Assembly: GCA_950097015.1 (NCBI GenBank) | Contig: CATNEN010000015.1 | Span: forward strand, 1,178,001-1,242,000 | Length of the DNA: 64,000 nt | Reading direction: 5' to 3' | Origin: Macrostomum hystrix | Lineage: Eukaryota > Animalia > Platyhelminthes | Part shown: piece after piece, positions 41,768 through 63,997 of the stretch | Numbering within the stretch: position 1 is the first letter of the stretch | How the letters are laid out: each line of letters starts with the position of its first letter | Notes under the pieces: model-generated | The model's input: the letters and a program-made list of their open reading frames with translations, nothing else | Told to the model about the DNA's origin: nothing | Databases searched by the model: none | Program-made: the position numbers and the translations under genes

Positions 41768-44700
41768 GGTGTAGCATGAAATATTGACGGAAGCATGACT
41801 TATCGAAGGTGTAGCATGAACTATTGACGGAAGCATGAACTATCGAGGGTTTAGCATGAAACATTGACGGAAGCATGACTTATCGAGGGTGTAGCATGAA
41901 ATATTGACGGAAGCATGACTTATCGAGGGTGTAGCATGAAATATTGACGGAAGCATGAACTATCGAGGGTGTAGCATGAAATATTGACGGAAGCATGACT
42001 TATCGAGGGTTTAGCATGAACTATTGACGGAAGCATGACTTATCGAAGGTGTAGCATGAAATATTGACGGAAGCATGACTTATCGAAGGTGTAGCATGAA
42101 CTATTGACGGAAGCATGACTTATCGAAGGTGTAGCATGAACTATTGACGGAAGCATGACTTATCGAAGGTGTAGCATGAACTATTGACGGAAGCATGACT
42201 TATCGAAGGTGTAGCATGAACTATTGACGGAAGCATGACTTATCGAGGGTGTAGCATGAAATATTGACGGAAGCATGACTTATCGAGGGTGTAGCATGAA
42301 CTATTGACGGAAGCATGACTTATCGAGGGTGTAGCATGAAACATTGACGGAAGCATGACTTATCGAGGGTGTAGCATGAAACATTGACGGAAGCATGACT
42401 TATCGAGGGTGTAGCATGAAACATTGACGGAAGCATGACTTATCGAGGGTGTAGCATGAAACATTGACGGAAGCATGACTTATCGAGGGTGTAGCATGAA
42501 ACATTGACGGAAGCATGACTTATCGAGGGTGTAGCATGAAACATTGACGGAAGCATGACTTATCGAGGGTGTAGCATGAAACATCGACGGAAGCATGACT
42601 TATCGAGGGTGTAGCATGAAATATTGACGGAAGCATGACTTATCGAAGGTGTAGCATGAACTATTGACGGAAGCATGACTTATCGAAGGTGTAGCATGAA
42701 CTATTGACGGAAGCATGACTTATCGAGGGTGTAGCATGAAATATTGACGGAAGCATGAACTATCGAGGGTGTAGCATGAAATATTGACGGAAGCATGACT
42801 TATCGAGGGTGTAGCATGAAATATTGACGGAAGCATGAACTATCGAGGGTGTAGCATGAAATATTGACGGAAGCATGACTTATCGAGGGTTTAGCATGAA
42901 CTATTGACGGAAGCATGACTTATCGAAGGTGTAGCATGAAATATTGACGGAAGCATGACTTATCGAAGGTGTAGCATGAACTATTGACGGAAGCATGACT
43001 TATCGAAGGTGTAGCATGAACTATTGACGGAAGCATGACTTATCGAAGGTGTAGCATGAACTATTGACGGAAGCATGACTTATCGAAGGTGTAGCATGAA
43101 CTATTGACGGAAGCATGACTTATCGAGGGTGTAGCATGAAATATTGACGGAAGCATGACTTATCGAGGGTGTAGCATGAACTATTGACGGAAGCATGACT
43201 TATCGAGGGTGTAGCATGAAACATTGACGGAAGCATGACTTATCGAGGGTGTAGCATGAAACATTGACGGAAGCATGACTTATCGAGGGTGTAGCATGAA
43301 CTATTGACGGAAGCATGACTTATCGAGGGTGTAGCATGAAACATTGACGGAAGCATGACTTATCGAGGGTGTAGCATGAAACATTGACGGAAGCATGACT
43401 TATCGAGGGTGTAGCATGAAACATTGACGGAAGCATGACTTATCGAGGGTGTAGCATGAAACATCGACGGAAGCATGACTTATCGAGGGTGTAGCATGAA
43501 ATATTGACGGAAGCATGACTTATCGGAGGTGTAGCATGAAACATTGACGGAAGCATGAACTATCGAGGGTGTAGCATGAAACATTGACGGAAGCATGAAC
43601 TATCGAGGGTGTAGCATGAAATATTGACGGAAGCATGACTTATCGAAGGTGTAGCATGAAATATTGACGGAAGCATGAACTATCGAGGGTGTAGCATGAA
43701 ACATTGACGGAAGCATGACTTATCGAGGGTGTAGCATGAAATATTGACGGAAGCATGACTTATCGAAGGTGTAGCATGAACTATTGACGGAAGCATGAAC
43801 TATCGAGGGTTTAGCATGAAACATTGACGGAAGCATGACTTATCGAGGGTGTAGCATGAAATATTGACGGAAGCATGACTTATCGAGGGTGTAGCATGAA
43901 ACATTGACGGAAGCATGACTTATCGAAGGTGTAGCATGAACTATTGACGGAAGCATGACTTATCGAGGGTGTAGCATGAAATATTGACGGAAGCATGACT
44001 TATCGAAGGTGTAGCATGAACTATTGACGGAAGCATGACTTATCGAAGGTGTAGCATGAACTATTGACGGAAGCATGACTTATCGAGGGTGTAGCATGAA
44101 ATATTGACGGAAGCATGAACTATTGAGGGTGTAGCATGAAATATTGACGGAAGCATGACTTATCGAGGGTGTAGCATGAACTATTGACGGAAGCATGAAC
44201 TATCGAGGGTGTAGCATGAAATATTGACGGAAGCATGACTTATCGAGGGTTTAGCATGAACTATTGACGGAAGCATGACTTATCGAGGGTGTAGCATGAA
44301 ATATTGACGGAAGCATGACTTATCGAAGGTGTAGCATGAACTATTGACGGAAGCATGACTTATCGAAGGTGTAGCATGAACTATTGACGGAAGCATGACT
44401 TATCGAGGGTGTAGCATGAAATATTGACGGAAGCATGAACTATCGAGGGTGTAGCATGAACTATTGACGGAAGCAAGAACTATCGAGGGTTTAGCATGAA
44501 ACATTGACGGAAGCATGAACTATCGAGAGGGTAGCATGAAATATTGACGGAAGCATGAACTATCGAGAGGGCAGCATGTGTTTTCAATGGGGTTGCATAA
44601 TTAATTTCGGGTGTAGCATAAATTATTGACCGGAAGGATAAATTTTTCGAGTGAACTTCAATAAAGTGTATTATTCCGGGAGCTTCGGTAAATATTGAGA

Positions 44701-47361
44701 GTAGCATGATTGTTGCAAGGTGCAGGAGCTCAATAATAGTAATAGCAATGACAGCACGGCGAGGCGAAGTGGACAACGAGAAGATAAGGCGAGATAACAA
44801 GAACTAGAACCGGACAGGACAGGACAAGCACGAGAACCAGAACGAGAACCAGGACAGACTCAGAACCAGAACCAGAACCAGTGGGGCGCGAGCGGGCCTA
44901 AAGCCCTTAGTTAAATAAGCTTAGTAAACTGCAGAACAGGGCGATCGATAACTCTAGAAACTGGCCTTAGCCAATGAGCGTGTAAGTACACTGGTCTGGG
45001 AAGACGACAATTTAAACATTAGCAAAACCAAGCTGTGGCGGCGCGATGTGCACCAACGCCTACTAACAGTAACACTCTAAGAATTACAGCTTAACCATAC
45101 GAACTGAGAAATGGATGAAAACCAGATGACATCAGTAAAACGGCTCTAGTTAGTACACACGTAAATTAGCTATGTAAATTAATACGTAAAGTAAATTGCT
45201 AGGGGCGCTCTCAACAAGTGACAACGTCACAGTGTGTTCTTCTTCCTCAAAAGGGAGTTTTGGTTGCTAGAAAAAAGTACTTGAAAATTTTTTTTAAGTA
45301 AAACTGATCATCTTTAACACGTATTGTTATAATTATCACTTAATTTTCATTTAAAAGTAGTAGAAACACTTTGCTACTAAACTTTTATGAGGCATACTTC
45401 ATTGGATAGATGATTTGTAAGCACTAGCGCTATATGCATTGGCCTGTTTATTGATACTTAAAATATACTTAAGTGGGAACATATTATGATGTCAAAAATG
45501 GGGAAGTACGACTTAAATAGAGAACATTAATAAACACAAAAAATCTTAATGGAGGGTCTGCACCTAAAGTTTAAACAGAAACTGGGATATAAAAGACATT
45601 TTGATCATGAAAAAGGAACAGGAGATCAAGTAGCACACTGATCTACTACTGAGATCAGTAGTACTATTGATTTACTAATTGGGATTTAATTAGTAAATAT
45701 TAAAATTAAAAGGACAAGTGGCATTGTTGCTTCCAATTGAAGAATTCTTTCTACGAAGCCTGGAATCTTCCTGATATTTCCGAGCATGCCTGATAAGACA
45801 GGCAAATATATTGTTATAGAACAGCGCTGAAGAGTTTGCGTGTTAATCAGACACACGAAACTCCCACTTCTAGACAATGGGGAACAATTGCCTAGGAATT
45901 TATAAAAGTCACGTGACACTTACTGCAATTGCTTCTTCTTCCTTAAGTAGTTCGTAGTCTTCTGGGTCCTTGTAATCCGGTAGTTCTTCTTCTTCTTATT
46001 CTGGTCGACCGTGAGGTTTCGAGTCTGTGTTTCTTGAGTCTTGGTAGTCTTGTCTTCTTTTGTCTTCCTGGCAGCTGCTTGAGTTTGTCTGTTGGCCAAT
46101 AAATGACGAGAGCGAATCAGATTACTTGACGGTTTCCTCGAGCTCGGAATTCACAATAGAAACGTGCGCCCTAGTGAACAATTGAAATCTCTCGTGTATA
46201 TCTCTAATAGGTCCTCCTGAAGGGCGTCTTCTTCGTTACCTCCGAAAGATAACGGATAACTCAAATCAAATCAATCAATAATCCTCTAGGAATGTATCCT
46301 AGGAAACAAGGAGGCCTTTCTCAAAAGTATCGACGATATGTGGCTCTCGTAAACTTAATTCAATTCAACAAAGACCGCTAGCGATAAATAACTCTGTCTA
46401 GTAAAGCGCTTACCACTTGTCTTTCCCTCAGAGATGAGTCCTCTTCTTCGTAGGGTGTTTTGAAGTCCGGTGGACCTCTCCGAGTCTGAATTTTTAGCTC
46501 GGATTTTCGCTTGTATTTATAGTAAAATTTTGGGGAAAAACCGGTTCTACTACCGGGTGTTTACATTGGGCATACATGTTTGCACAGTGAGGTCAGACTT
46601 GTTTGATCAGCTGCGTTTTGGGGGGTTTTCAGGTGAACATTACCATATTTGGAATATTGTGTAAATACAGGTGCAGAAACCGATGAGTCATGTTTGCTTC
46701 AAGTAAATACAGCTGTCGAGAACCAGTTCTCCGATTTCATGTCACATGACTTGCTTCAAAAATAGCGCATGACTCATTCCTAAAAATAGATTAAACATTA
46801 TAGCTAAGGTTTCCTTGTGACATTACTTTAAGTAGCGCGTTAAGTAAAAACATATTTTACAACTCTCTACAATATCTCCCTTTTTTACGAAAAAATTCGT
46901 CCCGAATTTATTGTTGACAATTAAAATTTTGGCATAAAAATTTAGGAGAATATACTTATATGTACGTATTTGTTGAAACAGTTGTGTGGTAGAATTTTAT
47001 AGATTTACAAAAACATAGTGAAACAGTGGATAATTCGATTTAAAACTTGTACCTAAAGCGTGAGAGTGAATACCATCACCGAGCAGTAGCAATAGTTACC
47101 AGCTACGAACGTATTAGTTAGTGGTAATTGTAGACAAAATTGTAATTAAGAGGCAATAGTGAATGTAAGTAGAAGAAAAGTGTTTGGATTTTTGTTCACC
47201 CATAGATCATGTTGTTTAGGTGTGTTTGGTGTTGTCGCCTTATTTTTTCCACCAGCTTGCTTATGGGCCAGAAAAGTTTTTGCAGTGGTGTGTAAGTAGT
47301 TTCTTCGGTCCGTTCCATTAGCATGAGGAAGGTGTCGAACGCCGTTGGTTCTCCTGGACTT

Positions 47362-47814
47362 TCAGCAATATTGTGGGCGAGCAGTAAGAGCCTTTGACGA
47401 TATGATTTTTAGACGCCAAGTTATTGGCCACGATTTTATGTTAATCGTTAAGTCGTTTATGCTGGCCTCCTCGCAGTTAGTTTCGTCTAGTAGGAGATCG
47501 AGGTGTATGGGCGTCATGTTGGTGATCGTTTTAGTATTGTCCAACATCTTCTCTAAACAGTCTGGACAGGAAGCGATGTTTCGTCGTGCCATTGATTGTA
47601 AGCAGCTAAAACAACTCCAATGTCGATTTTCGCACAATCGTATGTTGGGTTGTTCGTTGCATAGGACGCACCATACTCGGCTCCTGCGACACAGCGGACA
47701 TGTAGGTAGTGGGCCCTGGCTTGTGCAGTTTAGACAGACTTTATGCCCCCATTCGCATACTGGAACCAGATCTAGGCGTTCGTCGAGGCAGATGGGTCAC
47801 AACTCTCGATTCAT
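47362..47814 (-). pseudogene. Accessory double-RING protein 2, with in-frame TGA at 47799-47797 replacing the first Cys
   Basis: My translation: MNREL*PICLDERLDLVPVCEWGHKVCLNC..TCPLCRR..WCVLC..RLCENRHWSCFSC..ASCPDC, paralogous to 48122-48487. Confidence 0.82.
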
Positions 47815-47827
47815 CTGTTGAAATGTT

Positions 47828-48097
47828 TTAATAATATTCTGATTCAGAGTTATTATACTGGTATGTTTCTTGAGATGGTAGTATATATGATAGATCCTCG
47901 TTTCGCAAAATTAGTGTGGGAAGAATTGTACAGAAAATGGGACAGGGATGAAGATTCATGTCATCGACAAGATTAAACAGTTTTTGTGCAATATCATGTA
48001 TGGACAATTGTCTAAGCTCAGGGCCGTATTGCAATGAGTATCGTACGCTCGTACAATGTTTTTACGCGTTTTGTGAGCAATTCGTGGTATAGGCCAT
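47828..48097 (-). pseudogene. Small accessory ORF of unknown function with one internal TAA (48064-48062)
   Basis: ATG 48097 MAYTTNCSQNA*KHCTSVRYSLQYGPELRQ... stays in frame with the 68-aa ORF in the track. Confidence 0.45.
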
Positions 48098-48121
48098 GCT
48101 TTTAGAAGTTGAATTATCTTA

Positions 48122-48487
48122 TTAGAGGAAAAAAAGAGTATAGGTTAATGGATGAAGTTGGCAACCATAATTTGGTTTAATACGCGCAAGTTTGTTATAA
48201 ATCATGAATAGTGGGGTATTATTGCAAACAGGACATTGGAAAATGGCTCGATAGACAAACTTCTTCATGCATTGCGGACACATAAAATGTTGGTTTTGAC
48301 AGTATTGTACAGTTCGCCATGAGTTACATATCATACATTGGCGGAGATTTCCACGGCACAGAGGACAGTTTTTTAATGGTTTTTTGTAGTGTGCGAGGCT
48401 TAAGCAAGAACCGCAAACATGGTGTTTATTGACACATATACATGGTAGTTTACATGAGAATTCTGTAAGACAGACAGGACAGTCCAT
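48122..48487 (-). CDS. Accessory double-RING (C3HC4-like x2) protein 1
   Basis: CPVC..C.NKHHVCGSC..CPLC followed by CMIC..CQNQHFMCPQC..CPVC. Confidence 0.85.
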   Translation of the reverse strand: MDCPVCLTEFSCKLPCICVNKHHVCGSCLSLAHYKKPLKNCPLCRGNLRQCMICNSWRTVQYCQNQHFMCPQCMKKFVYRAIFQCPVCNNTPLFMIYNKLARIKPNYGCQLHPLTYTLFFL

Positions 48488-48645
48488 GGTAGTGTTCGCG
48501 AAAATTGTGTGGGCGTTTGCAGAGAGCAGAGGTTTAGTCGCCTTTTACGACAAGCTTGAGAAGCTGTAGTGTTATTCTTAATCCCGGTCACTACACGGGG
48601 AACAATAAACGAGTAATTTAACGAGGGCGTAGGTTATACGTATGA

Positions 48646-50328
48646 TTATTTGGTGGTGTGTTTTGTGGTTTGTGTCTCGGCATGTGCTGTTGCAATGTGC
48701 GTGTTTGTTGTTTTTGTGTGGTCTGGATTCTGTAACGTTGGAAGGAATGTAGTGTCGTTAGTGATGCGTTTTAAACGTTGAATGTGAACGTAGAACTGAG
48801 GTTGATGTGGATCCTGGATATTTGCAAGGCGTGCTGTTGTTGCGGATATCAGTCCTGTTACACGGAAAGGTCCTTTGTATTTGAAAGCATGCTTGTGCGT
48901 ATGCTGTGCCGGGTAGTGTAGGTAGACGATATCTCCTACTTGTAAGGTAGAAGCATGATTACTTGTTGTAGGTACGGTAGATTGGTTGTCGAGATTATGT
49001 TTTGCAATTTGCCATGCTAGGTGTAATTGAGAAGTGAACTTTTGTAGCGTCGTCGGCGTGTCAACATATTGAGATGGCAGTAATTTCTGGACTAATAGAT
49101 TCGGTGGTTGAAAGTCTCGAGAGAACATCAGAAAGAATGGTGTGTTCTCTGTTGAGCGATGAACTGCGCTGTTGTAGGCCATTGTCACGGATTGTATGTA
49201 AATAATCCAATCTTCAGGTTGTTTGTAAACAAAGTGTGTCAGCATTTCATGTAGATTTCTGTGAAATCTTTCGACGAGGTTTGCTTTTGGATTATATGTC
49301 GAAGTGAATATTTGTTGAATATTCAGTAGTTTGGCGGCCTGTTGAAATAACTGCGATGTGAACTGTGTACCATTGTCAGATGTTAGCGTCTTAGGAGTTC
49401 CGAATTTGCAGATAATTTCATTATAGAAGGCCATTGCAACTGTTGTCGCTGTGATGTCAGGTATCGGAATGGCAACGGCGAATTTCGAAAAAACATCCAA
49501 GGCTGTAAGAATGTAGTTGTAGTCGATAGAGTGTTGTCGAGCCGGTGGTAGTGGTCCGGTAATGTCAATTGACACTGTGTCCCATGTAGTTGTCTTCGGC
49601 ACTGATTGGAATTCAGGTTTTTGTCGTCTTCCGATTTTTGTTGAAGCACATGAGTGACATTGTGTGCAGTACTTGCGAATGTCTAAATTCATTGTTAACC
49701 AAAAATAGAACTGGGCGACTCTCTGGATTGTTTTCTTGGCGGATAAGTGTCCTGCTAATGGACTATCATGGAGTTCGTGTAGGATCGCTGAACGGAATGT
49801 GTATGGTAGGTACAGTCGCGGAATATTGTTGTACACCCAGTAGAGTGCGAGTTCTCTGAAAACTAGACTATTTTTGTGTTTTCGTAAGAATTGTTTTTCG
49901 ATTTTTGTAAGTTCATTTTCCGTTTCTTCTGTATCTTCTTGTATGGCTTTGTAAAAGGAATCGTCTTGTTGTGCTTTCAACAAGTCTTTTATGGTTGGAA
50001 TTGGATGAACTGCATTGATCTCGTATGTTCTGGACAGTGCATCAGCGGCTTTATTCATTGGCCCTGGTTTGTAAACCAGGTGAAAGTTGTAGTCCTGTAT
50101 TTTGAGGACCATTCGGATAAGTCTATTGTTCGTCTGTCCTTTTGTTTTAACAACGTGAGTCAGCGGTGCATGAACTGTGCGAATGATAGTTGGCAGTGGT
50201 GATCCATAGATGTAGTAATGGAATTGTCGAAGAGCAAACAGAACAGCTAGTAGTTCTCGTTCAGTGGATGACCATTTCGTTTCGTTTGGTCTATCGTTTG
50301 GTCTATTCGTTTGGTCTGATGTAAGCAA
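48646..50328 (-). CDS. Pol, RNase H C-part plus integrase (frameshifted from RT)
   Basis: TERELLAV, ADALSR, HDSPLAGH..CTQC, VSIDITGP, SDNGTQF, LVERFHR, GPF. The RNase H TDH motif reads TVH. Confidence 0.93.
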   Translation of the reverse strand: MLTSDQTNRPNDRPNETKWSSTERELLAVLFALRQFHYYIYGSPLPTIIRTVHAPLTHVVKTKGQTNNRLIRMVLKIQDYNFHLVYKPGPMNKAADALSRTYEINAVHPIPTIKDLLKAQQDDSFYKAIQEDTEETENELTKIEKQFLRKHKNSLVFRELALYWVYNNIPRLYLPYTFRSAILHELHDSPLAGHLSAKKTIQRVAQFYFWLTMNLDIRKYCTQCHSCASTKIGRRQKPEFQSVPKTTTWDTVSIDITGPLPPARQHSIDYNYILTALDVFSKFAVAIPIPDITATTVAMAFYNEIICKFGTPKTLTSDNGTQFTSQLFQQAAKLLNIQQIFTSTYNPKANLVERFHRNLHEMLTHFVYKQPEDWIIYIQSVTMAYNSAVHRSTENTPFFLMFSRDFQPPNLLVQKLLPSQYVDTPTTLQKFTSQLHLAWQIAKHNLDNQSTVPTTSNHASTLQVGDIVYLHYPAQHTHKHAFKYKGPFRVTGLISATTARLANIQDPHQPQFYVHIQRLKRITNDTTFLPTLQNPDHTKTTNTHIATAHAETQTTKHTTK

Positions 50329-51850
50329 TCGGTTTTTCTTTCTTTGGTTCCATTTCCTGAAGTAGTACGGCTCCTAATCCGCTTCCTGATGCGTCTGTTT
50401 CTATGATAAAAGGTTTGTGGAAGTTCGGGTGTTTGAGAAGAGCATCACTAGTTAGTTGTTGTTTGATTCTATCGAAACTTTCCTGTTGTTCCGCTTTCCA
50501 GTTGTCTTCTTTCCACTTTGGAATTTTTAGTAGTTCGTACAATGGTTTAGCCGTTTGTGCAAAGTTAGGTAGGAATTTTCGGAAATATTGTGCTAGTCCA
50601 AGGAATGACTGCAGTTTGGTAATTGACGTAGGTTTCGGGAACTTCTTGACCTTGTCGACGTTATTTGGGTCAGGTGATATGCCTCGTGATGAGACGTGAT
50701 GTCCAAGATATCGGACCGAATCTCTGCAGAATTTACATTTTGTTGGTTGCAGTTTTAGACCTTGTTGTCGGAGTAAGAAGAGAGCTTGTTCCATGACTTT
50801 TACTAGTTGTTCAAAGTTATTTCCAAAGGCAAGAATATCATCAACATAGTGAAGCAGATTTGTACATCCGGCTAGCATATAGGCTGTAAGACGGCTCATT
50901 GTTGCTGGTGAGTTGGAGATTCCCATTGGACTTCTCTGATACGCGAAAACTTCTCCTTTGTAAGTTTTGAAGGCAGTGTATTGTTTTGATTCTTCTTCAA
51001 GTTCGATTTGCCAGAATCCATGTCGTAGGTCAAATACGGTGAAGAGTGTCGCCGTATTGAGTCGTGCTAGCAGTTCTGAGATTTTTGGTAGACTTTGTTG
51101 ATCGGTGGGAATGTACTTATTTAGGACTCGGAAATCACAGACGAGTCGTCTTTCGTTTGTTTCTTTCTTTTCGACAAGAAGGCAAGGTGAAGAATAAGCT
51201 GAGACGGTACGTTTTATGATTCCTGCTTTAAGCATTTTTTCTATGATTTCATCGAAGTGTTGCTGTAGGTGTTTAGCGACTGGATATGGTTTACATTGGA
51301 TTGGTTCTTGATGAGGTAGCAGTTCAATTTTTTGCTTGATATCTCGAGCACATCCGATGTCGTAATCGTGATGACAAAAGACGTCGTTATACTTCCACAA
51401 TAGATCTTTAACTTGTGTTTTTTGTCCTTCAGTGATTGGACTTTGAGAAAGATCAATTTGTTGTAGGAATTTTTGTTTAGACATTTTTGTTGTTGTCTCT
51501 GGTTGGATGAGCATTACCGAAGCTTGTGTGTTGAGATGTCCCATGCATGTTCCTGCATAGATTTTTACTGGATGTTGATTTGGATTTATAATTTGTACTG
51601 GGATAAGGACTAGAGCCGTTGGTATTAAAACTTCTTTTGTTGTGAGGATCTTCTTTCTTGGTTCAAATATCATAGCTTCTTCGACATCGTCATGATTGGC
51701 GAGGTATGCTTTAACCCAACATGTACTTTCCGGCTGTATGAAGACATCTTGTTTAATATGTACTTTTGGTTGAAGGTGAACTTGGCTGACTAAAGGATGT
51801 TCCACATTGTCCAGTTTGAATGTTTGTTTGTTGAAATCAAATGTTAATGG
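50303..51850 (-). CDS. Pol, dUTPase-like spacer plus reverse transcriptase plus RNase H N-part
   Basis: SAYSSPCLLVEKK, RLVCDFRVLN, FDLRHGFWQI, PMGISNSP, YVDD, ETDASGSGLGAVLLQ. The frame extends upstream as PLTFDFNKQTFKL. Confidence 0.94.
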   Translation of the reverse strand, partial: PLTFDFNKQTFKLDNVEHPLVSQVHLQPKVHIKQDVFIQPESTCWVKAYLANHDDVEEAMIFEPRKKILTTKEVLIPTALVLIPVQIINPNQHPVKIYAGTCMGHLNTQASVMLIQPETTTKMSKQKFLQQIDLSQSPITEGQKTQVKDLLWKYNDVFCHHDYDIGCARDIKQKIELLPHQEPIQCKPYPVAKHLQQHFDEIIEKMLKAGIIKRTVSAYSSPCLLVEKKETNERRLVCDFRVLNKYIPTDQQSLPKISELLARLNTATLFTVFDLRHGFWQIELEEESKQYTAFKTYKGEVFAYQRSPMGISNSPATMSRLTAYMLAGCTNLLHYVDDILAFGNNFEQLVKVMEQALFLLRQQGLKLQPTKCKFCRDSVRYLGHHVSSRGISPDPNNVDKVKKFPKPTSITKLQSFLGLAQYFRKFLPNFAQTAKPLYELLKIPKWKEDNWKAEQQESFDRIKQQLTSDALLKHPNFHKPFIIETDASGSGLGAVLLQEMEPKKEKPIAYIRPNE

Positions 51851-53640
51851 TATAGATTCATTTGCCGAAATGTGTCGATTCCAATAATAACATCTTGGCT
51901 TGGAAGATGGTCAATAACAAATGCTTGTACCAGAAGTTGCTTGTTTGCAAGTTTAAGTGATATATTCACTTGTCCTAGGATATTAAGTGCATGTCCTCCG
52001 GCTCCGGCGACAGCGATTGAAGAAGGTCGCATATGAAGTTGCAATTTGTCGTAGAGTCTTTTTGTGATGACTGTGATTGAACTTCCTGAGTCGAGAAGTG
52101 CTTTACTGGGCATGTTGTTTATAAATACTTGAGCCATCGCTCTACCCATATTGGCTTGCAAGGTGCAAATGTAATTTGCTGGCCATTTTGGATCCGTTGG
52201 TAGAGGAGGAGATTTCGGCGGAGGTCTCACTGTTCTGATTTCAATTTTTGGGTAAATATTTGATCGTTCTGGTTCTGGTGCTGTTGGCAATAATTGTTTT
52301 CCTTGATCTTGTAGTATAGTTTCTTCAATTTTTTCGTTGGGTGTAGAAGTTTCTTGTTGTTTGTCAATTTGGAAAATCCGTTGTTTTGCTGGATAGGCTC
52401 GTGCTACACATCGTACTACTGTGATAAAGATCATTAGTGCAAGGTGAATCCATACAATGCATGCACTGGAGAAGATGAATCCCTGATAGTAACTTCCTTT
52501 TCCTTGGAGTAAATCGAGAAAGCTATTCGACCAAAAGGATCCTATTGCGTTATGTATGATGAATCCTGTCGAAAAGGATTGTTCTTTGTCCTGCTGGTTG
52601 TGTTGGGTAAAGAGCTTGTTCATCATCTGTCGTTGGGCAATAAAAACTTGAAGAAAATCATTAATTGTCCATCCTGGTGTGATTTCGTCAAGTTTGATGT
52701 CACCAAATGGTTTATAGGTGGTCTTATTTATCTTGAGCTGTAGGTCCGATAGTTCGTATGTTTCGTCGATAATAGCTTGCATACCAGTGATGTTTGTAAT
52801 GTGCCCAGTTGTTGAGACCTTGTGTAGTTTATTATTAATGTTGAAATAGTTGGCTGCGTCAGTGCAGGGTCTCGGGATTGCAGTTCCAACAATTATATTG
52901 TGCACAGTATCTAGAAATCCTTGAATTCGTTTCCCATTGTAGTAAGCTTCGATTCGGGGTTTATCGTAGCACGTAGTTGATGTGTTTGATGGCAAGATAT
53001 TAAAATGATGCAGTGGCACACATTTGTAAATCAACAGATGGCCAGAGATGGGGATAGCTAAAGCATCTTGAATCCCTGTGATTTTTCTGAATGTAGACGT
53101 TGGATTGACATAATAGTTTTGTCGTGCATAGTTAAGTGCAGTTTCGTGCATTCTACAAGTCAGTTGGATCAGTGATTTGTGCAAGTAGTTTAGTTCTTTA
53201 TGTAGGTTATGTTCCATTGCTGCGAGTTTTGCCGCTAGTAGTCGTGCAGAAACCATTGATGGTCTTTGTAGTTCTCTCCTTTTCCGAGCTGTGTTGGTTC
53301 TTGTTGAATAAGTAGTACCATTGACCAGTCTCATAAAGGTATCCTCATCCATATCACGTAATTCGAGCGGTATCTCTTGTTCAGACACTAGAAGTTTTTT
53401 AGAGTTCTCCTTGCAGTTAATTTGGAGATACTTGGGTTTTTTCGGAAAAGTTAGGGCAAAATCCGACGTACTCGCAAGGAAGGTATTTGACAGTAGATTT
53501 CCTTTTATTGTATGGTACTTCTGGAATTTACAATCAATATTCGGTTCAACTTTCCATGCAACGAAGTATTGTCGTTGGTATCCTGTAATCTCATAGTATG
53601 GGCTGTGTCGATGTTCAATTTGCCATCTGTAATTTTGATG
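51844..53640 (-). CDS. Envelope C-terminal part, TM helix, PTAP tail and aspartic protease (frame open from ~53640)
   Basis: Upstream of the tracked ORF the frame reads HQNYRWQ..YFVAWKVEPNIDCKF..ALTF..INC; furin-like ARKRR; NPTSTFRKITG..ALAIPISGHLLIYKC..CYDKP..GFLD..II..PC; TM YQGFIFSSACIVWIHLALMIFITVV; protease ALLDSGSSITVI...VIIGIDTF. Confidence 0.85.
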   Translation of the reverse strand, partial: HQNYRWQIEHRHSPYYEITGYQRQYFVAWKVEPNIDCKFQKYHTIKGNLLSNTFLASTSDFALTFPKKPKYLQINCKENSKKLLVSEQEIPLELRDMDEDTFMRLVNGTTYSTRTNTARKRRELQRPSMVSARLLAAKLAAMEHNLHKELNYLHKSLIQLTCRMHETALNYARQNYYVNPTSTFRKITGIQDALAIPISGHLLIYKCVPLHHFNILPSNTSTTCYDKPRIEAYYNGKRIQGFLDTVHNIIVGTAIPRPCTDAANYFNINNKLHKVSTTGHITNITGMQAIIDETYELSDLQLKINKTTYKPFGDIKLDEITPGWTINDFLQVFIAQRQMMNKLFTQHNQQDKEQSFSTGFIIHNAIGSFWSNSFLDLLQGKGSYYQGFIFSSACIVWIHLALMIFITVVRCVARAYPAKQRIFQIDKQQETSTPNEKIEETILQDQGKQLLPTAPEPERSNIYPKIEIRTVRPPPKSPPLPTDPKWPANYICTLQANMGRAMAQVFINNMPSKALLDSGSSITVITKRLYDKLQLHMRPSSIAVAGAGGHALNILGQVNISLKLANKQLLVQAFVIDHLPSQDVIIGIDTFRQMNLYH

Positions 53641-56242
53641 ATGCTTCGTTCAAGAGTTTTGCTGTTTCGCAGAACCCTGTGTTGTACTTGCAATCTTCCA
53701 TTGATAATTGTAGAGATTCCATGTTTTCAAATGGATTGTGGTAAAACAAGACTTTCCGGATTAAGTAACTGTTTGTCGTGGTGTAACGTGGCCATATGTA
53801 TTCGTTCCAATGGACATATCTACCGCTCGCACTGTTCTTGGTCCTGAAGAGTTGAGAGTTTCCAATTTTTTCATCGGCATGAAGTTCTCCATCTTTAGAA
53901 AATAATGTTTGGTTCCACTGGAGGCATTCTTCTTGTGTGACAGGCAGTGCTGTTTGCCAGAATCGGATGCGATTCCATTGGATGTACCAAACCTTTTCTA
54001 GTTCATGTTTGTCTCGGAAGCAGATAATACCATATTGCCTATGTTTCTTTGTGTTTGCTTTGTAGACATCGATCGTTAATGGAATAGGTTTTGTTTGATT
54101 AGTTTTAAAGTAACTGCACTTGATTTCCGTTGGTATTTTGTAGATGACTGGTTGGATGTTGGCATCAGTAGGGCAAATCATGGGCACTGAAGATGGTACA
54201 ACTGTCGGGAGAAGTAACATCACGATGGCTGAAAACAACCATCTTATCAGTATGTGCCGTTTCTTTTTCTTCACTTTGGTTGGTGGTGTCGGTTTATTGG
54301 TGTTTATTGAGTATCGTTGGTCTTCTGTCTCTCCAATTGGTGGAGTAAGGCGCATAGAAAAGTGCCATGGGTTGTTGCATCCTGATGGTCTGGTTTGTTG
54401 GTTATACCAGGTTGGTTGTTTCATATCGAATGTTAATGGTGTATTGAGAGTTTGCAGTACGGTACTTGTAGTATCCGTTCTCATGTCGATCCACGTTGTT
54501 GGTTCATCATAGATATGATCGTCATCATTTTCCATCGACGTATTGTAGTCACTTTTAGTCTGAGAAGATCTATCGTGCTTCGAGTAGTATGATTCGGTAT
54601 CCACTGCTTTATCGTGTCCATTCTGTCCTTCAGATGAATTGACATGGGTTATGTTTTCGTATTCGGGATCAGGTTTGTACTTGGGTGTCGAAGGCGGTGT
54701 CTCTGTCAAGTCGATGTCATCGACTAAAATTTGTAGCATGCTGATGCTTTCTTCAGACGTGTTGTGTGAATTTTTCGCACTGTGGTCCTCATTATTCCTT
54801 TCTGTGGATGTGGACAATTTATCTATGCCTTCTTTGTTTTGCAGAATTTTTGAAAGATCACTCATCGTTGGAATTTTAAATAATCCTTTGATTTGTTGTT
54901 GTAATTGTTTTCGTTCAATGTGTTGACAGGTGTTGAAGGCAACACTTTCTCTTGGCGAGGGAATCGATAATTCTTCAAACAATGAACCCATTATGCAGCT
55001 GCTGTCGTTGCTTGTGTTGTCGTTCTGTATTTCCTGTGTTGACTCATTGTTGTAGTAAAAATTGTTTTTTTCTGTATCCTCTGTTTCCTTTTGTGGCATG
55101 GGCGGCTCTTTCGAATGGTCGCTTTCGATTATAGTAATATAGGCTGCACCCTCGTTGTCCAGATGAAGGTCATTGATTTCTTGCTCCTTTTGTTTCTCAA
55201 GTTCATCAAGAACATTGACGGAAAAGTCTGGCATAAGATCTTCAATCTTGAACTTTGGCTCAATAGCTTGAGTGTATTGTCGACGGACTTGCGTTGGTTG
55301 TCTTGGAGGTGGAGGATTTCTTTGTTGACGATAAGGTACGATGGCATTAGATGGTCTGCTATCTTGTTGTCGACTATTTGTCCAATTACGGTTTGAAGGC
55401 TGTCTTGGAGGATGAGTCCAATTGGTCTGTCTATTGTCATTGTATGAACGTGGGTTGCCACGTGATCTGCAGTCTCTAGCATAATGACCGATCCTTCCAC
55501 AGGTGTAACAAGTTGATGTGTGCAAGTATCTCTGTTGTGGTTGTGGATAGGAATATCTCTGCTGCTGTGGTACAATAGCAGAAGTTTGGTGTTGCTGCAT
55601 GAGTTTGCTTAATTGTTCTGCTAGTTGTGTCGTGTCACTATTATGAGTAGTCATAAGAGGTGCGCTAGCTTCCCATTGCATTCCACAACGGAGCAATTGT
55701 TCCTCTGTGTTAATAGTTTCTCTCAGCAGTCTATCTCGCAAAGTAGGCTGTGCGTTGTTAATCACATGAAGTATTAAGCTTTGTTCCCGGTCTTCAAGAC
55801 GTTGTCTTTCTCGGGCAGCTGATTCGGCAGGTCCTATAGGTTGAGCTCCTTGATCCAATGGTGGAGGCTGATGTAATGCTTTGACGATCTTACGTATGTC
55901 ATCAACAAAGGTGAGAAAACTCTCAGTGGGACTCATTTTTCGATTATGAAGTTTATGAAGGAGTACCGATCTGTTTGTTCCACATCTTGCGAATTGTGCT
56001 CTCAGTTGGGTAACTAGAGCTTGATAATCTTGTTGTACTGCAGCTGTCAATTTTCCATAGATTTCTCGGGCTGTTCCTTGTAACAGTGGAGGTAGGAGGA
56101 GTGCTTTCTCTGCATTCTGTAATCCATATTCGCGTGAGACCAAATCAAAGTGATCAATGAATGTGTTGAAATCTTTATCCATTGTATACGTTCCGACCGT
56201 TTCCTTAATGTCACGATGGACCTGATAGTTTCTTCGTGCCAT
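53615..56242 (-). CDS. Gag (capsid-like, CCHC knuckle) fused through a long spacer and internal signal sequence to the envelope N-terminal part
   Basis: ATG 56242 MARRNYQ; FIDHFDLV..LLLPPLLQGTAREIY; CYTCGRIGHYARDC; KKKKRHILIRWLFSAIVMLLLPTVVPS/SVPMICP; GIICF..WYIQW..PVTQEECLQW..DCKYNTGFCET. Confidence 0.88.
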   Translation of the reverse strand: MARRNYQVHRDIKETVGTYTMDKDFNTFIDHFDLVSREYGLQNAEKALLLPPLLQGTAREIYGKLTAAVQQDYQALVTQLRAQFARCGTNRSVLLHKLHNRKMSPTESFLTFVDDIRKIVKALHQPPPLDQGAQPIGPAESAARERQRLEDREQSLILHVINNAQPTLRDRLLRETINTEEQLLRCGMQWEASAPLMTTHNSDTTQLAEQLSKLMQQHQTSAIVPQQQRYSYPQPQQRYLHTSTCYTCGRIGHYARDCRSRGNPRSYNDNRQTNWTHPPRQPSNRNWTNSRQQDSRPSNAIVPYRQQRNPPPPRQPTQVRRQYTQAIEPKFKIEDLMPDFSVNVLDELEKQKEQEINDLHLDNEGAAYITIIESDHSKEPPMPQKETEDTEKNNFYYNNESTQEIQNDNTSNDSSCIMGSLFEELSIPSPRESVAFNTCQHIERKQLQQQIKGLFKIPTMSDLSKILQNKEGIDKLSTSTERNNEDHSAKNSHNTSEESISMLQILVDDIDLTETPPSTPKYKPDPEYENITHVNSSEGQNGHDKAVDTESYYSKHDRSSQTKSDYNTSMENDDDHIYDEPTTWIDMRTDTTSTVLQTLNTPLTFDMKQPTWYNQQTRPSGCNNPWHFSMRLTPPIGETEDQRYSINTNKPTPPTKVKKKKRHILIRWLFSAIVMLLLPTVVPSSVPMICPTDANIQPVIYKIPTEIKCSYFKTNQTKPIPLTIDVYKANTKKHRQYGIICFRDKHELEKVWYIQWNRIRFWQTALPVTQEECLQWNQTLFSKDGELHADEKIGNSQLFRTKNSASGRYVHWNEYIWPRYTTTNSYLIRKVLFYHNPFENMESLQLSMEDCKYNTGFCETAKLLNEASSKLQMAN

Positions 56243-57813
56243 ATTCGCAACTGGGAACGGAAATAATTCAAGTTCTGGATCGATGTTCAAGGGTTCGTCC
56301 AGATTGACTTCTCTGACAAGATTTAGTGTGAATAAAAAGTGTGTGTGTGTGTGCGTGTGCGTGTGTATCAGCAAATTGAAAATGGTTTACACAGAGGAAT
56401 TATTTACTCAGGACAAGGGAGAAAAATTTATACAAAGCAGGGAACGTGTGCCGCTTTTAACGCTGAAAAGGGGTTATTGAAATGTGAGCCGGTGAGTTCA
56501 GTCGCGCGATTCCCAGGTGTGCAAACAATAGAGCGAAGTGACGCGTGTGGCTTATGTGCAAACAATATCCGGTAGGGACAGCAAAATTTTTCAGAGGGAT
56601 GACGCAACAAAATTTTTATGAATTTGTGGATCAAAGGCAATAATGATGAGTTGCAAAAATTGTTTCTTTTTACTTTTTCGTTAAAACGATTCAAGAGTTG
56701 TAACGCAAAAAAATTTAGTATCTTGGCCTGGGCTTGATTGCAGGGCCTGGGCGAGATCACCAGTTGAAGAGTTTTGCGTGTTGATCAGACACACGAAACT
56801 CCCACTTCTAGACAATGGGGAACAATTGCCTAGGAATTTATAACAGTCACGTGACACTTACTGCAATTGCTTCTTCTTCCTTAAGTAGTTCGTAGTCTTC
56901 TGGGTCCTTGTAATCCGGTAGTTCTTCTTCTTCTTATTCTGGTCGACCGTGAGGTTTCGAGTCTGTGTTTCTTGAGTCTTGGTAGTCTTGTCTTCTTTTG
57001 TCTTCCTGGCAGCTGCTTGAGTTTGTCTGTTGGCCAATAAATGACGAGAGCGAATCAGATTACTTGACGGTTTCCTCGAGCTCGGAATTCACAATAGAAA
57101 CGTGCGCCCTAATGAACAATTGAAATCTCTCTTGTGTCTCTCTAATAGGTCCTCCTGAAGGGCGTCTTCTTCGTTACCTCCGAAAGATAACGGATAACTC
57201 AAATCAAATCAATCAATAATCCTCTAGGAATGTATCCTAGGAAACAAGGAGGCCTTTCTCAAATGTATCGACGATATGTGGCTCTCGTAAACTTAATTCA
57301 ATTCAACAAGGATCGCTAGCGATAAATAACTCTGTCTAGTAAAGCGCTTACCACTTGTCTTTCCCTCAGAGATGAGTCCTCTTCTTCGTAGGGTGTTTTG
57401 AAGTCCGGTGGACCTCTCCGAGTCTGAATTTTTAGCTCGGATTTTCGCTTGTATTTATAGTAAAATTTTGGGGAAAAACCGGTTCTACTACCGGGTGTTT
57501 ACATTGGGCATACATGTTTGCACAGTGAGGTCAGACTTGTTTGATCAGCTGCGTTTTGGGGGGTTTTCAGGTGAACATTACCATATTTGGAATATTGTGT
57601 AAATACAGGTGCAGAAACCGATGAGTCATGTTTGCTTCAAGTAAATACAGCTGTCGAGAACCAGTTCTCCGATTTCATGTCAGATGACTTGCTTCAAAAA
57701 TAGCGCATGACTCATTCCTAAAAATAGATTAAACATTATAGCTAAGGTTTCCTTGTGACATTACTTTAAGTAGCGCGTTAAGTAAAAACATATTTTACAA
57801 CTCTCTACAGCGC

Positions 57814-58258: not shown

Positions 58259-59162
58259 GTTGAAAGCTCCAGAAAAATATTTTTCGCTGCGACTCTAACC
58301 CTGGCCTGTGCGCTCTCAGCAACTGTTGCCAGGCAGTTCAAGCTCACGAGTGTCGGCTGCTTCATCGACCTGACGACTGGCGGAAGAGACGTCAACGAGC
58401 TGAAAGACTTCGGCTTCACCCGGTTTGGCCAAGCCAGCCTGCAGCAGGGAACATTCGAGAACTTCCAGTCCAATGTGTCTGTGCGCAGTTCCACAATGAC
58501 CCACGACCTCTGCGGAAGCGTGTGCACTCTGGGCGGCTTCCAGTACATTGCGCTGCAGTCCTGGTAGTGGTGCTATTGTGGCAACGTCTATGGCCGGCAG
58601 GGCAGCGCTGCCAGCACTGACTGTAATACGGCATGCTCAGGCAATGCAACCCAGAACTGCGGAGCTAACTACAGAAACTTCGTGCTCAAGCTGAACTACA
58701 TCTGCAGTGACTGTGAGCTGCTTCTTTACTGCAACTTTGTACTTTTTAACAATCAAAGCCGGAAGTCTGTTACGATTATGGTTTCAGCAAGCTGAGGCGA
58801 ACATCTGTCTGTTTCGAAATATACTTTCGTTAGCTTTGCTTTTACGTACCTTTGCATGATTTGAGTTCACAAACAAATGGTGCTCTTTTTTACTGTGCCT
58901 GAGTCAATTCCTGAGTCTCCCCCATTCAATCACAGGCTTTGTCCTCGGCAACCGCACCCTGGTCGGCATCAGCAAGCCGAATGCGCCGGCCTTGTGGAGT
59001 CTCAAAGCTCGTGGACCTATCGAGTGCCTCATCCTGTGCGGTGTCGGCTGCGAGGCGGTGGTCTTCAACCATGAGCAGGGCCTCTGCCACCTGCTGGAGT
59101 TTGCTGTGGTGTCAGCTGCTCTCGACAGCGCCGGCAGCGGCGAGTTCTTCGTCCGCGGCTGA
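58259..59162 (+). pseudogene. WSC-PAN gene copy 1, lacking start codon and with premature TAG at 58565-58567. Exons ~58259-58712 and 58936-59162
   Basis: Near-identical to 62294-62747 and 63774-63997; TCCTGGTAG here versus TCCTGGGAG in copy 2. Confidence 0.87.
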
Positions 59163-61621: not shown

Positions 61622-62287
61622 GTCCGCGGTGCCGCCCTAGAACCACGCACCAGTTTGCCGTGAATGCATTGCATTCAATATGACTGGCAAGGAGAAGGCG
61701 AAAAATGCTGAGAATCTGATAGCCAATAAGCAGAATTAAGCGAGCGCAACTGACAAGACCAATTGGCCAGGTGCAGCTGTTTGCCAGGCCATGTACAGGA
61801 TCAGTAACAAAAAGACAGGCTATATTGTACCTCTCTCCATTGCATATCCGTTTCCTTGGTGACATGTCGTAGAGTGTTTGCTCATCCCACTTTCTGCCAA
61901 TAACTATGCATTTGTTTTAATATAATGGAAAGAACTGCTAGGTCACTCCTCACTCCCACTTGCCATGCGAGCACCAGCTGGGATGCAAGCAAGAACGCAG
62001 CCCAGGATAAAATGTTGCAATTCTATAAAAATCTATTTTTCATGTGCGGCAACTCATTCCAAGTTTCTTTTTTTTAACAAAAAATACTTGGCGCATTTAG
62101 TCTGGAGCGGTCCATATAAAAAGCCTTTCTTATTGAAGACCTGGACCAGACTTGCTATCGCAACCACCAATCAGAAATTTCCATTCCCACTACTAGCATA
62201 AAGGCAGTTGTCGATTTTCCTCTTTCAGAATTCTGTAGCCCGAGTGTAGCCTGAGATTTCAGCTGTTAGTGAGCTGGAACTTCTAAA

Positions 62288-63997
62288 ATGCCCGTTGAAA
62301 GCTCCAGAAAAATATTTTTCGCTGCGACTCTAACCCTGGCCTGTGCGCTCTCAGCAACTGTTGCCAGGCAGTTCCAGCTCACGAGTGTCGGCTGCTTCAT
62401 CGACCTGACGACTGGCGGAAGAGACGTCAACGAGCTGAAAGACTTCGGCTTCACCCGGTTTGGCCAAGCCAGCCTGCAGCAGGGAACATACGAGTACTTC
62501 CAGTCCAATGTGTCTGTGCGCAGTTCCACAATGACCCACGACCTCTGCGGCAGCGTGTGCGCTCTGGGCGGCTTCCAGTACATTGCGCTGCAGTCCTGGG
62601 AGTGGTGTTATTGTGGCAACGTCTATGGCCGGCAGGGCAGCGCTGCCAGCACTGACTGTAATACGGCATGCTTCGGCAATGCAACCCAGAACTGCGGAGC
62701 TAACTACAGAAACTTCGTGCTCAAGCTGAACTACATCTGCAGTGACTGTGAGCTGCTTCTTTACTGCAAATTTGTACTTTTTAACAAACAAAGCCGGAAG
62801 TCTGTTACGATTATGGTTTCAGCAAGCTGATGTGAACATCTGTTGTGAGCTGCGACTCACAATTCCCTTGCACCGACCCCAGAATTCTTTTAGCCTTTCA
62901 CCCCAGCCATCTGGGCGATAAATAGAAGACAACAATAGAATCGTTGCGTTTTTCGCTGCTTTGACTCGTTTGACCCCTGCCAGTAAGATACGCGTTTAAC
63001 GATTCATTCATTTCCTGCTCTCTTCATCATACACTTGCTTAACCTTCCCGACCTCAGTGTCCTCTGATTGGACACGAGTGGCCAACCGCTCATCCAAAGA
63101 TCCTCTATCCTTCCGCGTCTGCCCTCGAGTCTGCGAAGTGTCGGTACGCCTCCAGACCGCTACCCACATCACTCTGGTGCTGTTGAGTGGCCGCCTGCTC
63201 AGTCATCCGCGTATCCTTCTCGCAGGGCTAAGCGAGTGTCTGTCCGCTCCTAGCCCCTCATCTCTACCTCGGAGTGTCATTACGCCTCGAGGGTCGCCGC
63301 TCCCCTTCCCTCCTCCACGGCAAGCTCTAGGCAGTCCGGACCCGAACCCCGACTACCCGTCTGCTGTCCGCTCGACGGTAACGGATATTACAGCACATCT
63401 GTCTATGCAGCAATGCAAATCGAATTGACTATCGTGATCTTTATAGCTAGCTTCGAGTTCACAAATGGTGCTCATTTTTGTTACAACTTGAATTGATGAG
63501 GAAGACTAAGACAGCATCTGATAGTTTGCACTGTATAATGCGCTGCTTGGTGGATGTTATTCCTCCCATCGATCGGCTCTTGTATTTCTTCTTTGAGCTG
63601 AGATGTCTCTATCTACTAAGCTGTAGCTGCACTTGCTACGGAGTCATTGACATTAGACAGTAGACAAAGTTAGGCTTTGTGCCAACTAAATAAATAAAAG
63701 TTCAAAGCCAAAACCACAACAATTTTATTACTGTGCCTGAGTCAATTCCTGAGACTCCTCTGCTCAATCACAGGCTTTGTCCTCGGCAACCGCACCCTGG
63801 TCGGCATCAGCAAGCCGAATGCACCGGCCTTCTGGAGTCTCAAAGCTCGTAGACTCACTGAGTGCATCTTTCTCTGCGGTGTCGGCTGCGAGGCGGTGGT
63901 CTTCAACCATGAGCAGGGCCTCTGTCACCTGCTGGAGTTCGCAGTGGTGCCAGCTGCTCTCGACAGCGCCAGCAGCGAGTTCTTCGTCCGCGGCTGA
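62288..63997 (+). CDS. Secreted WSC plus PAN/apple domain protein (227 aa). Exons 62288-62747 and 63774-63997
   Basis: Signal-like IFFAATLTLACALSATVA; WSC motif VGCFID..MTHDLCGSVC..GFQYIALQSWEWCYCGN..DCNTACFGNATQNCG; phase-1 GT-AG intron; PAN-like ECIFLC..CEAVVFN..LCHL. Confidence 0.85.

What the first reader, a model, noticed from the sequence alone, without database searches (positions are those of the whole stretch)
52400..54256. Envelope appears to be a class III fusion glycoprotein (gB / chuvirus / rhabdovirus-G-like)
The Cys and aromatic pattern fits class III fusogens: ICP near the N-terminus; G.IC followed by aromatic loop WYIQW..FW; P..EEC; a second aromatic loop YVHWNEYIW; DCKY..GFC; W....C.F; an internal furin-like RKRR; then NP..FR.ITG...LA...G.LLI.KC, CY.KP and GFL...II..C, which resemble the gB-type C-terminal region; and a single TM. 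This implies capture of a viral fusogen and possible cell-to-cell infectivity.
Basis: partly seen in the sequence, partly recalled or inferred. Interest (0 to 1): 0.8.

Follow-up and report, generated by a model that had tools for sequence, protein, structure and literature searches.

The report
Flatworm retrotransposon with herpes-gB-like envelope
This is a young but broken copy of a virus-like jumping gene, likely from a Macrostomum flatworm, that carries between its capsid and enzyme genes an envelope gene predicted to fold like the herpesvirus membrane-fusion protein gB; this layout is already published for flatworms, and whether such elements really infect neighbouring cells is untested.

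Summary
52400-54256 (minus strand) is the env gene of a full 12-kb Ty3/gypsy LTR element (45828-57809; LTRs 99% alike, 4-bp target duplication) ordered gag-env-protease-RT-RNaseH-integrase, plus two tandem-RING ORFs. The window's own N-terminal env piece folds into a class III fusion domain: the nine best of 48,161 PDB representatives are gB, Chandipura G, Bourbon/Thogoto GP and GP64. An intact Macrostomum lignano relative (60-69% identity, 12 of 12 ectodomain cysteines shared) matches herpes gB (Foldseek E 1e-20, Z 11-12). This copy has three frame breaks that contigs of other runs do not share; relatives encode gag-env-pol in one frame. The kind is known: GAG-ENV-POL gB-type errantiviruses of flatworms (PMC13524379, which lists an M. 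lignano element with the same primer site) and in-frame env in planarian Burro (PMC6431247). Capture from a virus and infectivity were not shown. Possibly new: ESCRT late-domain-like motifs in the Env tail rather than Gag (8 of 38 homologue tails against 1.25 expected) and the RING ORFs. New member of a known kind.

The parts
45828..57809 (-). Whole Ty3/gypsy LTR retroelement, gag-env-pol order, damaged copy
   Evidence: LTR pair, TG..CA ends, GCGC target duplication at 45824-45827 and 57810-57813
56765..57809 (-). 5' LTR (1045 nt)
   Evidence: 10 substitutions and 1 indel against the 3' LTR
56751..56762 (-). Primer-binding site
   Evidence: 12 of 12 letters equal to PBS_revComp listed for Platyhelminthes_Rhabditophora_Mlig_errantivirus_2; tRNA-Val-like is recalled, not tested
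54257..56242 (-). gag: capsid region, CCHC knuckle (55510-55471), long low-complexity linker; no stop before env
   Evidence: Pfam zf-CCHC E 4.5e-7; 30% identity to the gag part of P0011, E 6e-23
54197..54253 (-). Internal hydrophobic segment after a basic cluster; predicted signal/anchor for env
   Evidence: Kyte-Doolittle 2.27; same segment in P0009; cleavage inferred
53651..54184 (-). env N piece: class III fusion domain with two aromatic loops (53989-53975, 53818-53792)
   Evidence: AlphaFold pLDDT 80.6; best matches gB Z 8.3, rmsd 3.1, 127 aligned; Foldseek E 2e-5
53640..53650 (-). Break in env: short stretch missing, frame changes
   Evidence: gap against P0009; contigs of 3 of 3 covering runs differ from the window here
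52480..53643 (-). env C piece: rest of PH-like domain, furin-like RKRR (53286-53275), long central helix, crown domain
   Evidence: Pfam PF24664; 60% identity to P0009, whose model matches gB
52423..52479 (-). Single transmembrane helix
   Evidence: Kyte-Doolittle 2.37
52135..52422 (-). Cytosolic tail/linker with late-domain-like PTAP (52287) and IYPxI (52257) motifs
   Evidence: function inferred
51862..52131 (-). Aspartyl protease, in frame with env; second frame break just after it (about 51850)
   Evidence: Pfam E 1e-10
50089..51172 (-). Reverse transcriptase and RNase H; third break inside RNase H (about 50290-50320, short tandem duplication)
   Evidence: Pfam RVT_1 E 5e-29; best PDB hit Ty3 RT E 9e-52
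48646..49806 (-). Integrase (H2C2 and core) and C-terminal tail
   Evidence: Pfam E 7e-18 and 1e-16
48122..48487 (-). Accessory ORF 1: two C3HC4 RING fingers in tandem
   Evidence: Cys/His spacing; weak BRCA1 RING match E 0.04
47362..47814 (-). Accessory ORF 2: paralogue of ORF 1, early stop in this copy
   Evidence: 36% identity to ORF 1, E 1e-15; Sina_RING E 2e-5, below cut-off
46876..46886 (-). Polypurine tract
45828..46871 (-). 3' LTR (1044 nt)

Best explanation
The region is the envelope gene, predicted to be a herpes-gB-type class III fusogen, of a recently inserted but broken Ty3/gypsy element whose family likely makes capsid, envelope and enzymes as one membrane-spanning polyprotein and would bud as enveloped particles. 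Shown: gene order, LTRs, motifs, breaks, and one continuous frame in database relatives (P0009 env-pol, P0011 gag-env-pol). Predicted: fusion domain with two aromatic loops, PH-like domain, long central helix, crown domain. Inferred: Gag stays cytosolic and anchored by the internal signal; signal peptidase frees the Env N-end in the ER lumen; six disulfides form; furin cuts at RKRR; the TM stops transfer, leaving protease-RT-RNaseH-integrase on the cytosolic side tied to the Env tail until the element's protease releases them; PTAP/LYPxL-like motifs in that tail recruit ESCRT for budding; trimeric Env fuses the particle with a neighbouring cell. This copy cannot do so alone.
For: Profile of 55 homologous sequences: 16 of 17 PDB sequence hits are herpes gB, best E 2e-8. 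Model of P0009 ectodomain pLDDT 80.2: Foldseek gB E 1.5e-20; VIA Z 12.4, rmsd 9.0, 419 aligned; crown domain Z 12.1, rmsd 3.6, 167 aligned; BFVD top rows are nyami-, orino-, chu-like, entomopox and herpes glycoproteins. Window's own N piece: ranks 1-9 of 48,161 are class III fusogens, rank 10 Z 3.9. Twelve Cys are kept in 44 of 47 to all rows that cover them; two or more aromatics in loop 1 in 21 of 32 and loop 2 in 36 of 38 rows; R-x-K/R-R in 39 of 52. Of 63 representative hits, 20 have a CCHC knuckle upstream of env in the same chain, 17 a protease motif downstream, 9 both (Pfam on 37 of them). Contigs differ from the window at the env break in 3 of 3 covering runs, at the protease/RT break in 3 of 3, at the RNase H break in 2 of 2. 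Late-domain-like motifs: 8 of 38 tails, shuffle mean 1.25, 0 of 2000 shuffles reach 8.
Against: No particle, protein or fusion data. Whole-ectodomain TM-scores are only about 0.4 and rmsd 8-10 A; the full model is of a relative, not of this copy; best Z of the window's own piece is 8.3, near the level the tool calls common, so it rests on the rank pattern. Herpes gB needs partner glycoproteins that the element lacks (PMC13524379, section 9). A 1:1:1 Gag:Env:Pol ratio is unlike retroviruses (own knowledge), so splicing may modify the scheme. 30 of 38 tails carry no late-domain motif, the motifs were chosen after seeing the window, and homologues are not independent. Contigs show the family's common form, not this locus, and X1-X3 are one study.
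Confidence: 0.8

Rival explanations
1. Env is class III in fold but no longer serves infection: the family spreads inside cells and env is a passenger or membrane anchor within the polyprotein.
For: No data on particles; in-frame position would shield env from stops and frameshifts whatever its use; a deletion derivative lacking most of env and pol is seen in 2 of 4 runs, both of one study.
Against: Cysteines, both loops and the furin site are kept across 20-28% identical homologues; env identity to P0009 (60-69%) is close to that of pol (69-72%).
Confidence: 0.12
2. The frame changes are programmed ribosomal frameshifts that set the amounts of Gag, Env and Pol, so the copy is intact.
For: Frameshifts at protease/RT junctions are common in retroelements (own knowledge); LTRs are 99% alike.
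Against: P0009 reads through all three places in one frame and has residues that the window lacks at the env break; contigs of other runs differ from the window at each place; two breaks fall inside folded domains.
Confidence: 0.02
3. The env was captured recently from a nyami-, chu- or rhabdo-like RNA virus of flatworms, independently of other gB-type errantiviruses.
For: Best BFVD fold matches are negative-strand RNA virus glycoproteins; Pfam family is Monjiviricetes_fusion.
Against: Identity to those viral proteins is 8-14%, while many of the 63 sequence relatives sit in gag-env-pol chains; PMC13524379 finds env tracking pol and host. No tree was built here.
Confidence: 0.06

Closest known systems
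GAG-ENV-POL errantiviruses with HSV/gB-type ENV of Platyhelminthes, Bryozoa and Nematoda, esp. Platyhelminthes_Rhabditophora_Mlig_errantivirus_2 (Chary and Hayashi, eLife 2026, PMC13524379)
   Same: Ty3/gypsy pol, gag-env-pol order, gB-type env with two fusion loops, same 12-nt primer site as the M. lignano element (16 copies)
   Different: This copy is broken; LTR start-to-start 10.9 kb against 9.7 kb there; the paper's main text has no word on polyprotein, fused ORFs, accessory or RING genes. Sequence identity to that element could not be measured.
M. lignano database polyproteins PAA64473.1 (P0009), ALD16272.1 (P0001), PAA86625.1 (P0011)
   Same: Env-TM-protease-RT-RNaseH-integrase in one chain; P0011 also has gag; all 12 ectodomain Cys shared with P0009
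   Different: Only 56-72% identical to P0009 by segment and about 30% to P0011, so a sister family; annotated without env
Planarian Burro/GYPSM1 elements (Arkhipova and Yushenova 2019, PMC6431247)
   Same: env in frame between gag and pol in one polyprotein; ubiquitination-related extras
   Different: Burro is over 30 kb with BIR, BCL2, MATH, Ubl and ankyrin modules in the polyprotein; this element is 12 kb with two small tandem-RING ORFs after pol
Nematode gag-env-pro-pol elements (Sacco et al. 2022, PMID 35550022)
   Same: Flipped env/pol order (as cited in PMC13524379); one continuous ORF is recalled, paper not held
   Different: Other host phylum; not compared here
Herpesvirus glycoprotein B and other class III fusogens
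   Same: Fusion domain, PH-like domain, central helix, crown domain in the same order
   Different: 10-16% identity; shorter; no gH/gL partners in the element; embedded in a retroelement polyprotein

Membership tests
Class III viral fusogens | Elongated beta fusion domain with two hydrophobic loops at the tip | tested here: met
   Window piece model: strands 48-66/71-80 and 134-149 with the two aromatic loops between, pLDDT 90-96; gB Z 8.3, rmsd 3.1, 127 aligned; loop aromatics in homologues
Class III viral fusogens | PH-like domain into which the fusion domain is inserted | tested here: met
   In the relative P0009: many PH domains align to about 80 residues split over model 33-308, Z 5-6.5, rmsd 3-4
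Class III viral fusogens | Long central helix and crown domain | tested here: met
   P0009 model helix 323-369; PRV gB domain IV Z 11.8, rmsd 3.5, 164 aligned; sequence profile match to VZV gB over this region E 2e-8
Class III viral fusogens | Signal sequence, conserved disulfides, one C-terminal TM | tested here: met
   Hydropathy; 12 Cys conserved; cleavage and pairing not tested
Class III viral fusogens | Homotrimer | not tested
   No complex job was run
Class III viral fusogens | Membrane fusion activity | not testable with these tools
   Needs experiments
Ty3/gypsy LTR retroelements | Protease-RT-RNaseH-integrase order, Ty3-like RT | tested here: met
   Pfam; Ty3 RT best PDB hit E 9e-52, foamy next 5e-40; no tree built
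Ty3/gypsy LTR retroelements | TG..CA LTRs, PBS, PPT, short target duplication | tested here: met
GAG-ENV-POL gB-type errantiviruses (PMC13524379) | gB-type env between gag and Ty3/gypsy pol | tested here: met
GAG-ENV-POL gB-type errantiviruses (PMC13524379) | Place in the authors' POL tree and cysteine-bridge class | not tested
   Figures not held; no Mlig ENV row seen in the first 30 of 58 places of supplementary file 2
Mlig_errantivirus_2 itself (intact catalogued element) | Uninterrupted ORFs and the same length | tested here: not met
   Three breaks; LTR spacing 10.9 against 9.7 kb; filed as a damaged copy of a sister family, not as that element
Chuvirus or rhabdovirus G as the specific donor | Nesting within that viral clade | tested here: inconclusive
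   Fold matches to nyami-, chu-, rhabdo-like and herpes proteins overlap in score at 8-14% identity

The most novel reading that the evidence does not exclude
In this flatworm lineage the whole virion is one membrane-threaded polyprotein processed like an alphavirus or flavivirus structural precursor, and the ESCRT budding signals (PTAP, LYPxL, PPxY) have moved from Gag to the Env tail, so particles bud only where Env is present; two tandem-RING accessory proteins supply ubiquitin-ligase activity for budding or against host silencing. That would be an infectious retroelement life cycle open to study in a stem-cell model worm.
Probability: 0.25. Interest if true: 0.62.

Novelty: new member of a known kind. 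Interest (0 to 1): 0.3.

Why it matters
The fold call is right but adds one more family to a published class. What remains open for that class is how a gB-type env works without herpes partner proteins and how a gag-env-pol chain is processed (PMC13524379 calls the entry mechanism unknown). A young, multi-copy family in a likely Macrostomum host, with candidate budding motifs in the Env tail and RING accessory genes, gives concrete things to look for in a tractable animal.

Tried and rejected
No whole genome is held for the window, so copy number and host species were not measured; the host is inferred from nearest database proteins and the primer site. Word-index search for env relatives of similar length: 0 of 1866 candidates. 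Single-sequence PDB search with the env C piece: nothing under E 1. Atlas feature search of the P0009 ectodomain gave class III glycoprotein clusters in the first five rows shown but at 0.85-0.88, a lead only; the Atlas could not read the RING ORF. RING ORF 1: no homologue, PHROGs only E 0.011. Sequencing runs: no RNA holder listed, so nothing on expression. The 48897/53777 joint has a 3-nt microhomology and no GT-AG ends on either strand, so it was read as a deletion, not a splice. No class I (F-type) protein was listed in any fold search; that absence was not used as a test. No canonical heat-shock element in the LTR (pattern from PMC12801592, passages read). No tRNA gene in the window. One search was swamped by an unrelated term. 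Rows dropped: alignment A1 used 54 of 63 hits, A2 29 of 63 plus P0009; the tail test kept 38 of 63 (those with a TM and 40 or more tail residues). No tree and no trimer model were made.
Full report
Observation. The motifs are present on the minus strand in the stated order, from a hydrophobic segment at 54253-54197 to one TM at 52479-52423. The gene is split into two frames near 53640-53650. Both pieces score far above shuffles against a homologue profile that excludes the Macrostomum rows: 214 and 77 bits against at most 4.

Context. The gene lies in a complete LTR element, 45828-57809: LTRs of 1045 and 1044 nt with 11 differences, TG..CA ends, a GCGC target duplication, primer site and polypurine tract. 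Order: gag with CCHC knuckle, env, aspartyl protease, RT, RNase H, integrase, then two paralogous ORFs of two RING fingers each. The RT is nearest Ty3 among solved structures. Gag runs into env without a stop, and env into protease without a stop. The nearest database proteins are from Macrostomum lignano, so the host is likely a Macrostomum flatworm; no genome was held to confirm it.

Breaks. P0009 (PAA64473.1, 1914 aa) holds signal, env, TM, protease, RT, RNase H and integrase in one frame and aligns to the element in four segments of 56-72% identity, with frame changes in env, after the protease and in RNase H. P0011 (2852 aa) holds gag as well. Contigs of public runs differ from the window at each break: env 3 of 3 covering runs and protease/RT 3 of 3 (X7 had no cover), RNase H 2 of 2 (X2 and X6 no cover). 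X1-X3 are one study, X5-X7 another. So the breaks belong to this copy or its assembly and are not programmed frameshifts. Ten contigs of X1 leave the LTR end into different flanks, as expected of a multi-copy family.

Fold. A profile of 55 sequences finds herpes gB in 16 of 17 PDB sequence hits, best E 2e-8; 35 of 55 members hit Pfam Monjiviricetes_fusion, 3 Glycoprotein_B, 2 rhabdovirus fusion domain, 1 Baculo_F at E up to 0.01 (members scanned whole). The P0009 ectodomain model (pLDDT 80.2, pTM 0.61) matches postfusion gB: Foldseek E 1.5e-20, TM about 0.4; VIA Z 12.4, rmsd 9.0, 419 aligned. Against 48,161 representatives the five rows with Z 8 or more are all gB; Bourbon, Thogoto and Chandipura follow at 6.2-6.8 among PH domains. 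In BFVD the best rows are nyami-, orino-, chu- and rhabdo-like, entomopox and herpes glycoproteins at 8-14% identity. The window's own N piece (pLDDT 80.6) gives gB at Foldseek E 2e-5, and ranks 1-9 of 48,161 are gB, Chandipura G, Bourbon GP, GP64 and Thogoto GP, with rank 10 at Z 3.9. Both aromatic loops lie between long strands, where class III fusion loops lie. All 12 ectodomain Cys are shared with P0009 and nearly invariant in homologues; loop aromatic content is 0.19-0.21 against 0.10; a furin-type site occurs in 39 of 52. Limits: the full model is of a relative, global rmsd is high, no trimer was modelled.

Mechanism. Shown: order, frames, motifs. Inferred from topology and general knowledge: the internal signal follows a basic cluster and would send Env into the ER lumen, leaving Gag anchored on the cytosolic side; the TM would stop transfer, leaving Pol cytosolic and tied to the Env tail until the protease cuts. 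Of 63 relatives, 20 carry a CCHC knuckle upstream of env in the same chain, 17 a protease motif downstream, 9 both. The tail has PTAP and IYPxI motifs while gag has none; P0009's tail has LYPxI, PTAP and PPxY within 19 residues, P0011's PSAP and LYPxL; 8 of 38 homologue tails hold one of three motifs against 1.25 in shuffles (0 of 2000 reach 8), 2.8 per 1000 residues against 0.3-0.5 elsewhere. The reading as ESCRT late domains is recalled knowledge, the motifs were chosen after seeing the window, and 30 of 38 tails have none. It suggests budding coupled to Env. Fusion and infection are untested.

What is known. Chary and Hayashi (PMC13524379; read: abstract, section 5 part 1 of 2, section 6, section 9 part 1 of 2, section 14, word-search passages, rows of supplementary files by search; figures not seen) report that flatworm, bryozoan and nematode errantiviruses carry only gB-type env in GAG-ENV-POL order, and list an M. 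lignano element, 16 copies, with the same 12-nt primer site. Arkhipova and Yushenova (PMC6431247; passages) describe env in frame between gag and pol in planarian Burro. Sacco 2022 was not held; its continuous ORF is recalled. PMC12801592: passages only. All other papers: search listings only. Not found in print: RING ORFs (0 hits in the eLife main text; none of 15 listed of 65 papers has the term; 12 of 422 listed) and late domains in an errantivirus Env tail (6 papers listed, none on these elements). These searches cover open papers only; figures and the unread parts of supplements may bear on both. Earlier scan notes on other genomes reach the same class.

Verdict. Class III call supported; capture and infectivity not shown; new member of a known kind; interest 0.3. 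Boldest reading left open: Env-tail late domains and RING ligases in a single-polyprotein virion, probability 0.25, interest 0.62.

Noticed in passing
window 47362-48487 (-): Two paralogous tandem-RING ORFs inside the element. The first is covered in 4 of 4 runs laid; the second only in X1, at lower identity, while X2, X5 and X6 carry other sequence there: a variable accessory region. No homologue found.
   Followed up: partly
window 52243-52287 (-): PTAP and IYPxI late-domain-like motifs in the Env tail, echoed in relatives.
   Followed up: partly
window 48897/53777: Contigs of X5 and X6 join these places, dropping most of env and pol but keeping gag and the RING region: likely a non-autonomous deletion derivative.
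   Followed up: partly
P0060, P0051: Env homologues with a NADAR domain upstream; P0060 also has a nucleotidyltransferase domain, and its cluster holds a Meloidogyne incognita protein.
   Followed up: no
P0068, P0018: P0068 is a BEL/Pao polyprotein with the same env type at its C-end; P0018 has protease-like domains on both sides of env.
   Followed up: no
P0011 residues about 1000-1200: A long Thr/Ser/Pro-rich insert just before the furin site of this M. lignano env, mucin-like.
   Followed up: no
window 38044-41514 (-): A second, GC-rich gypsy-type element with gag-protease-RT-RNaseH and a truncated integrase, no env.
   Followed up: no
window 1-about 4800 and 41770-44580: Tandem arrays with 29-nt and 40-nt units.
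   Followed up: no
window 5681-17307 (+), 18473-19162 (+), 22106-23560 (+): Exon-like ORFs that look like a Tpr-type coiled-coil nucleoporin, a TRAF-type RING protein and a tyrosine-recombinase transposon ORF; labels by eye, recalled, not searched.
   Followed up: no
window 58264-58750 and 62273-62830 (+): Two near-identical WSC-domain-like coding stretches; label recalled.
   Followed up: no
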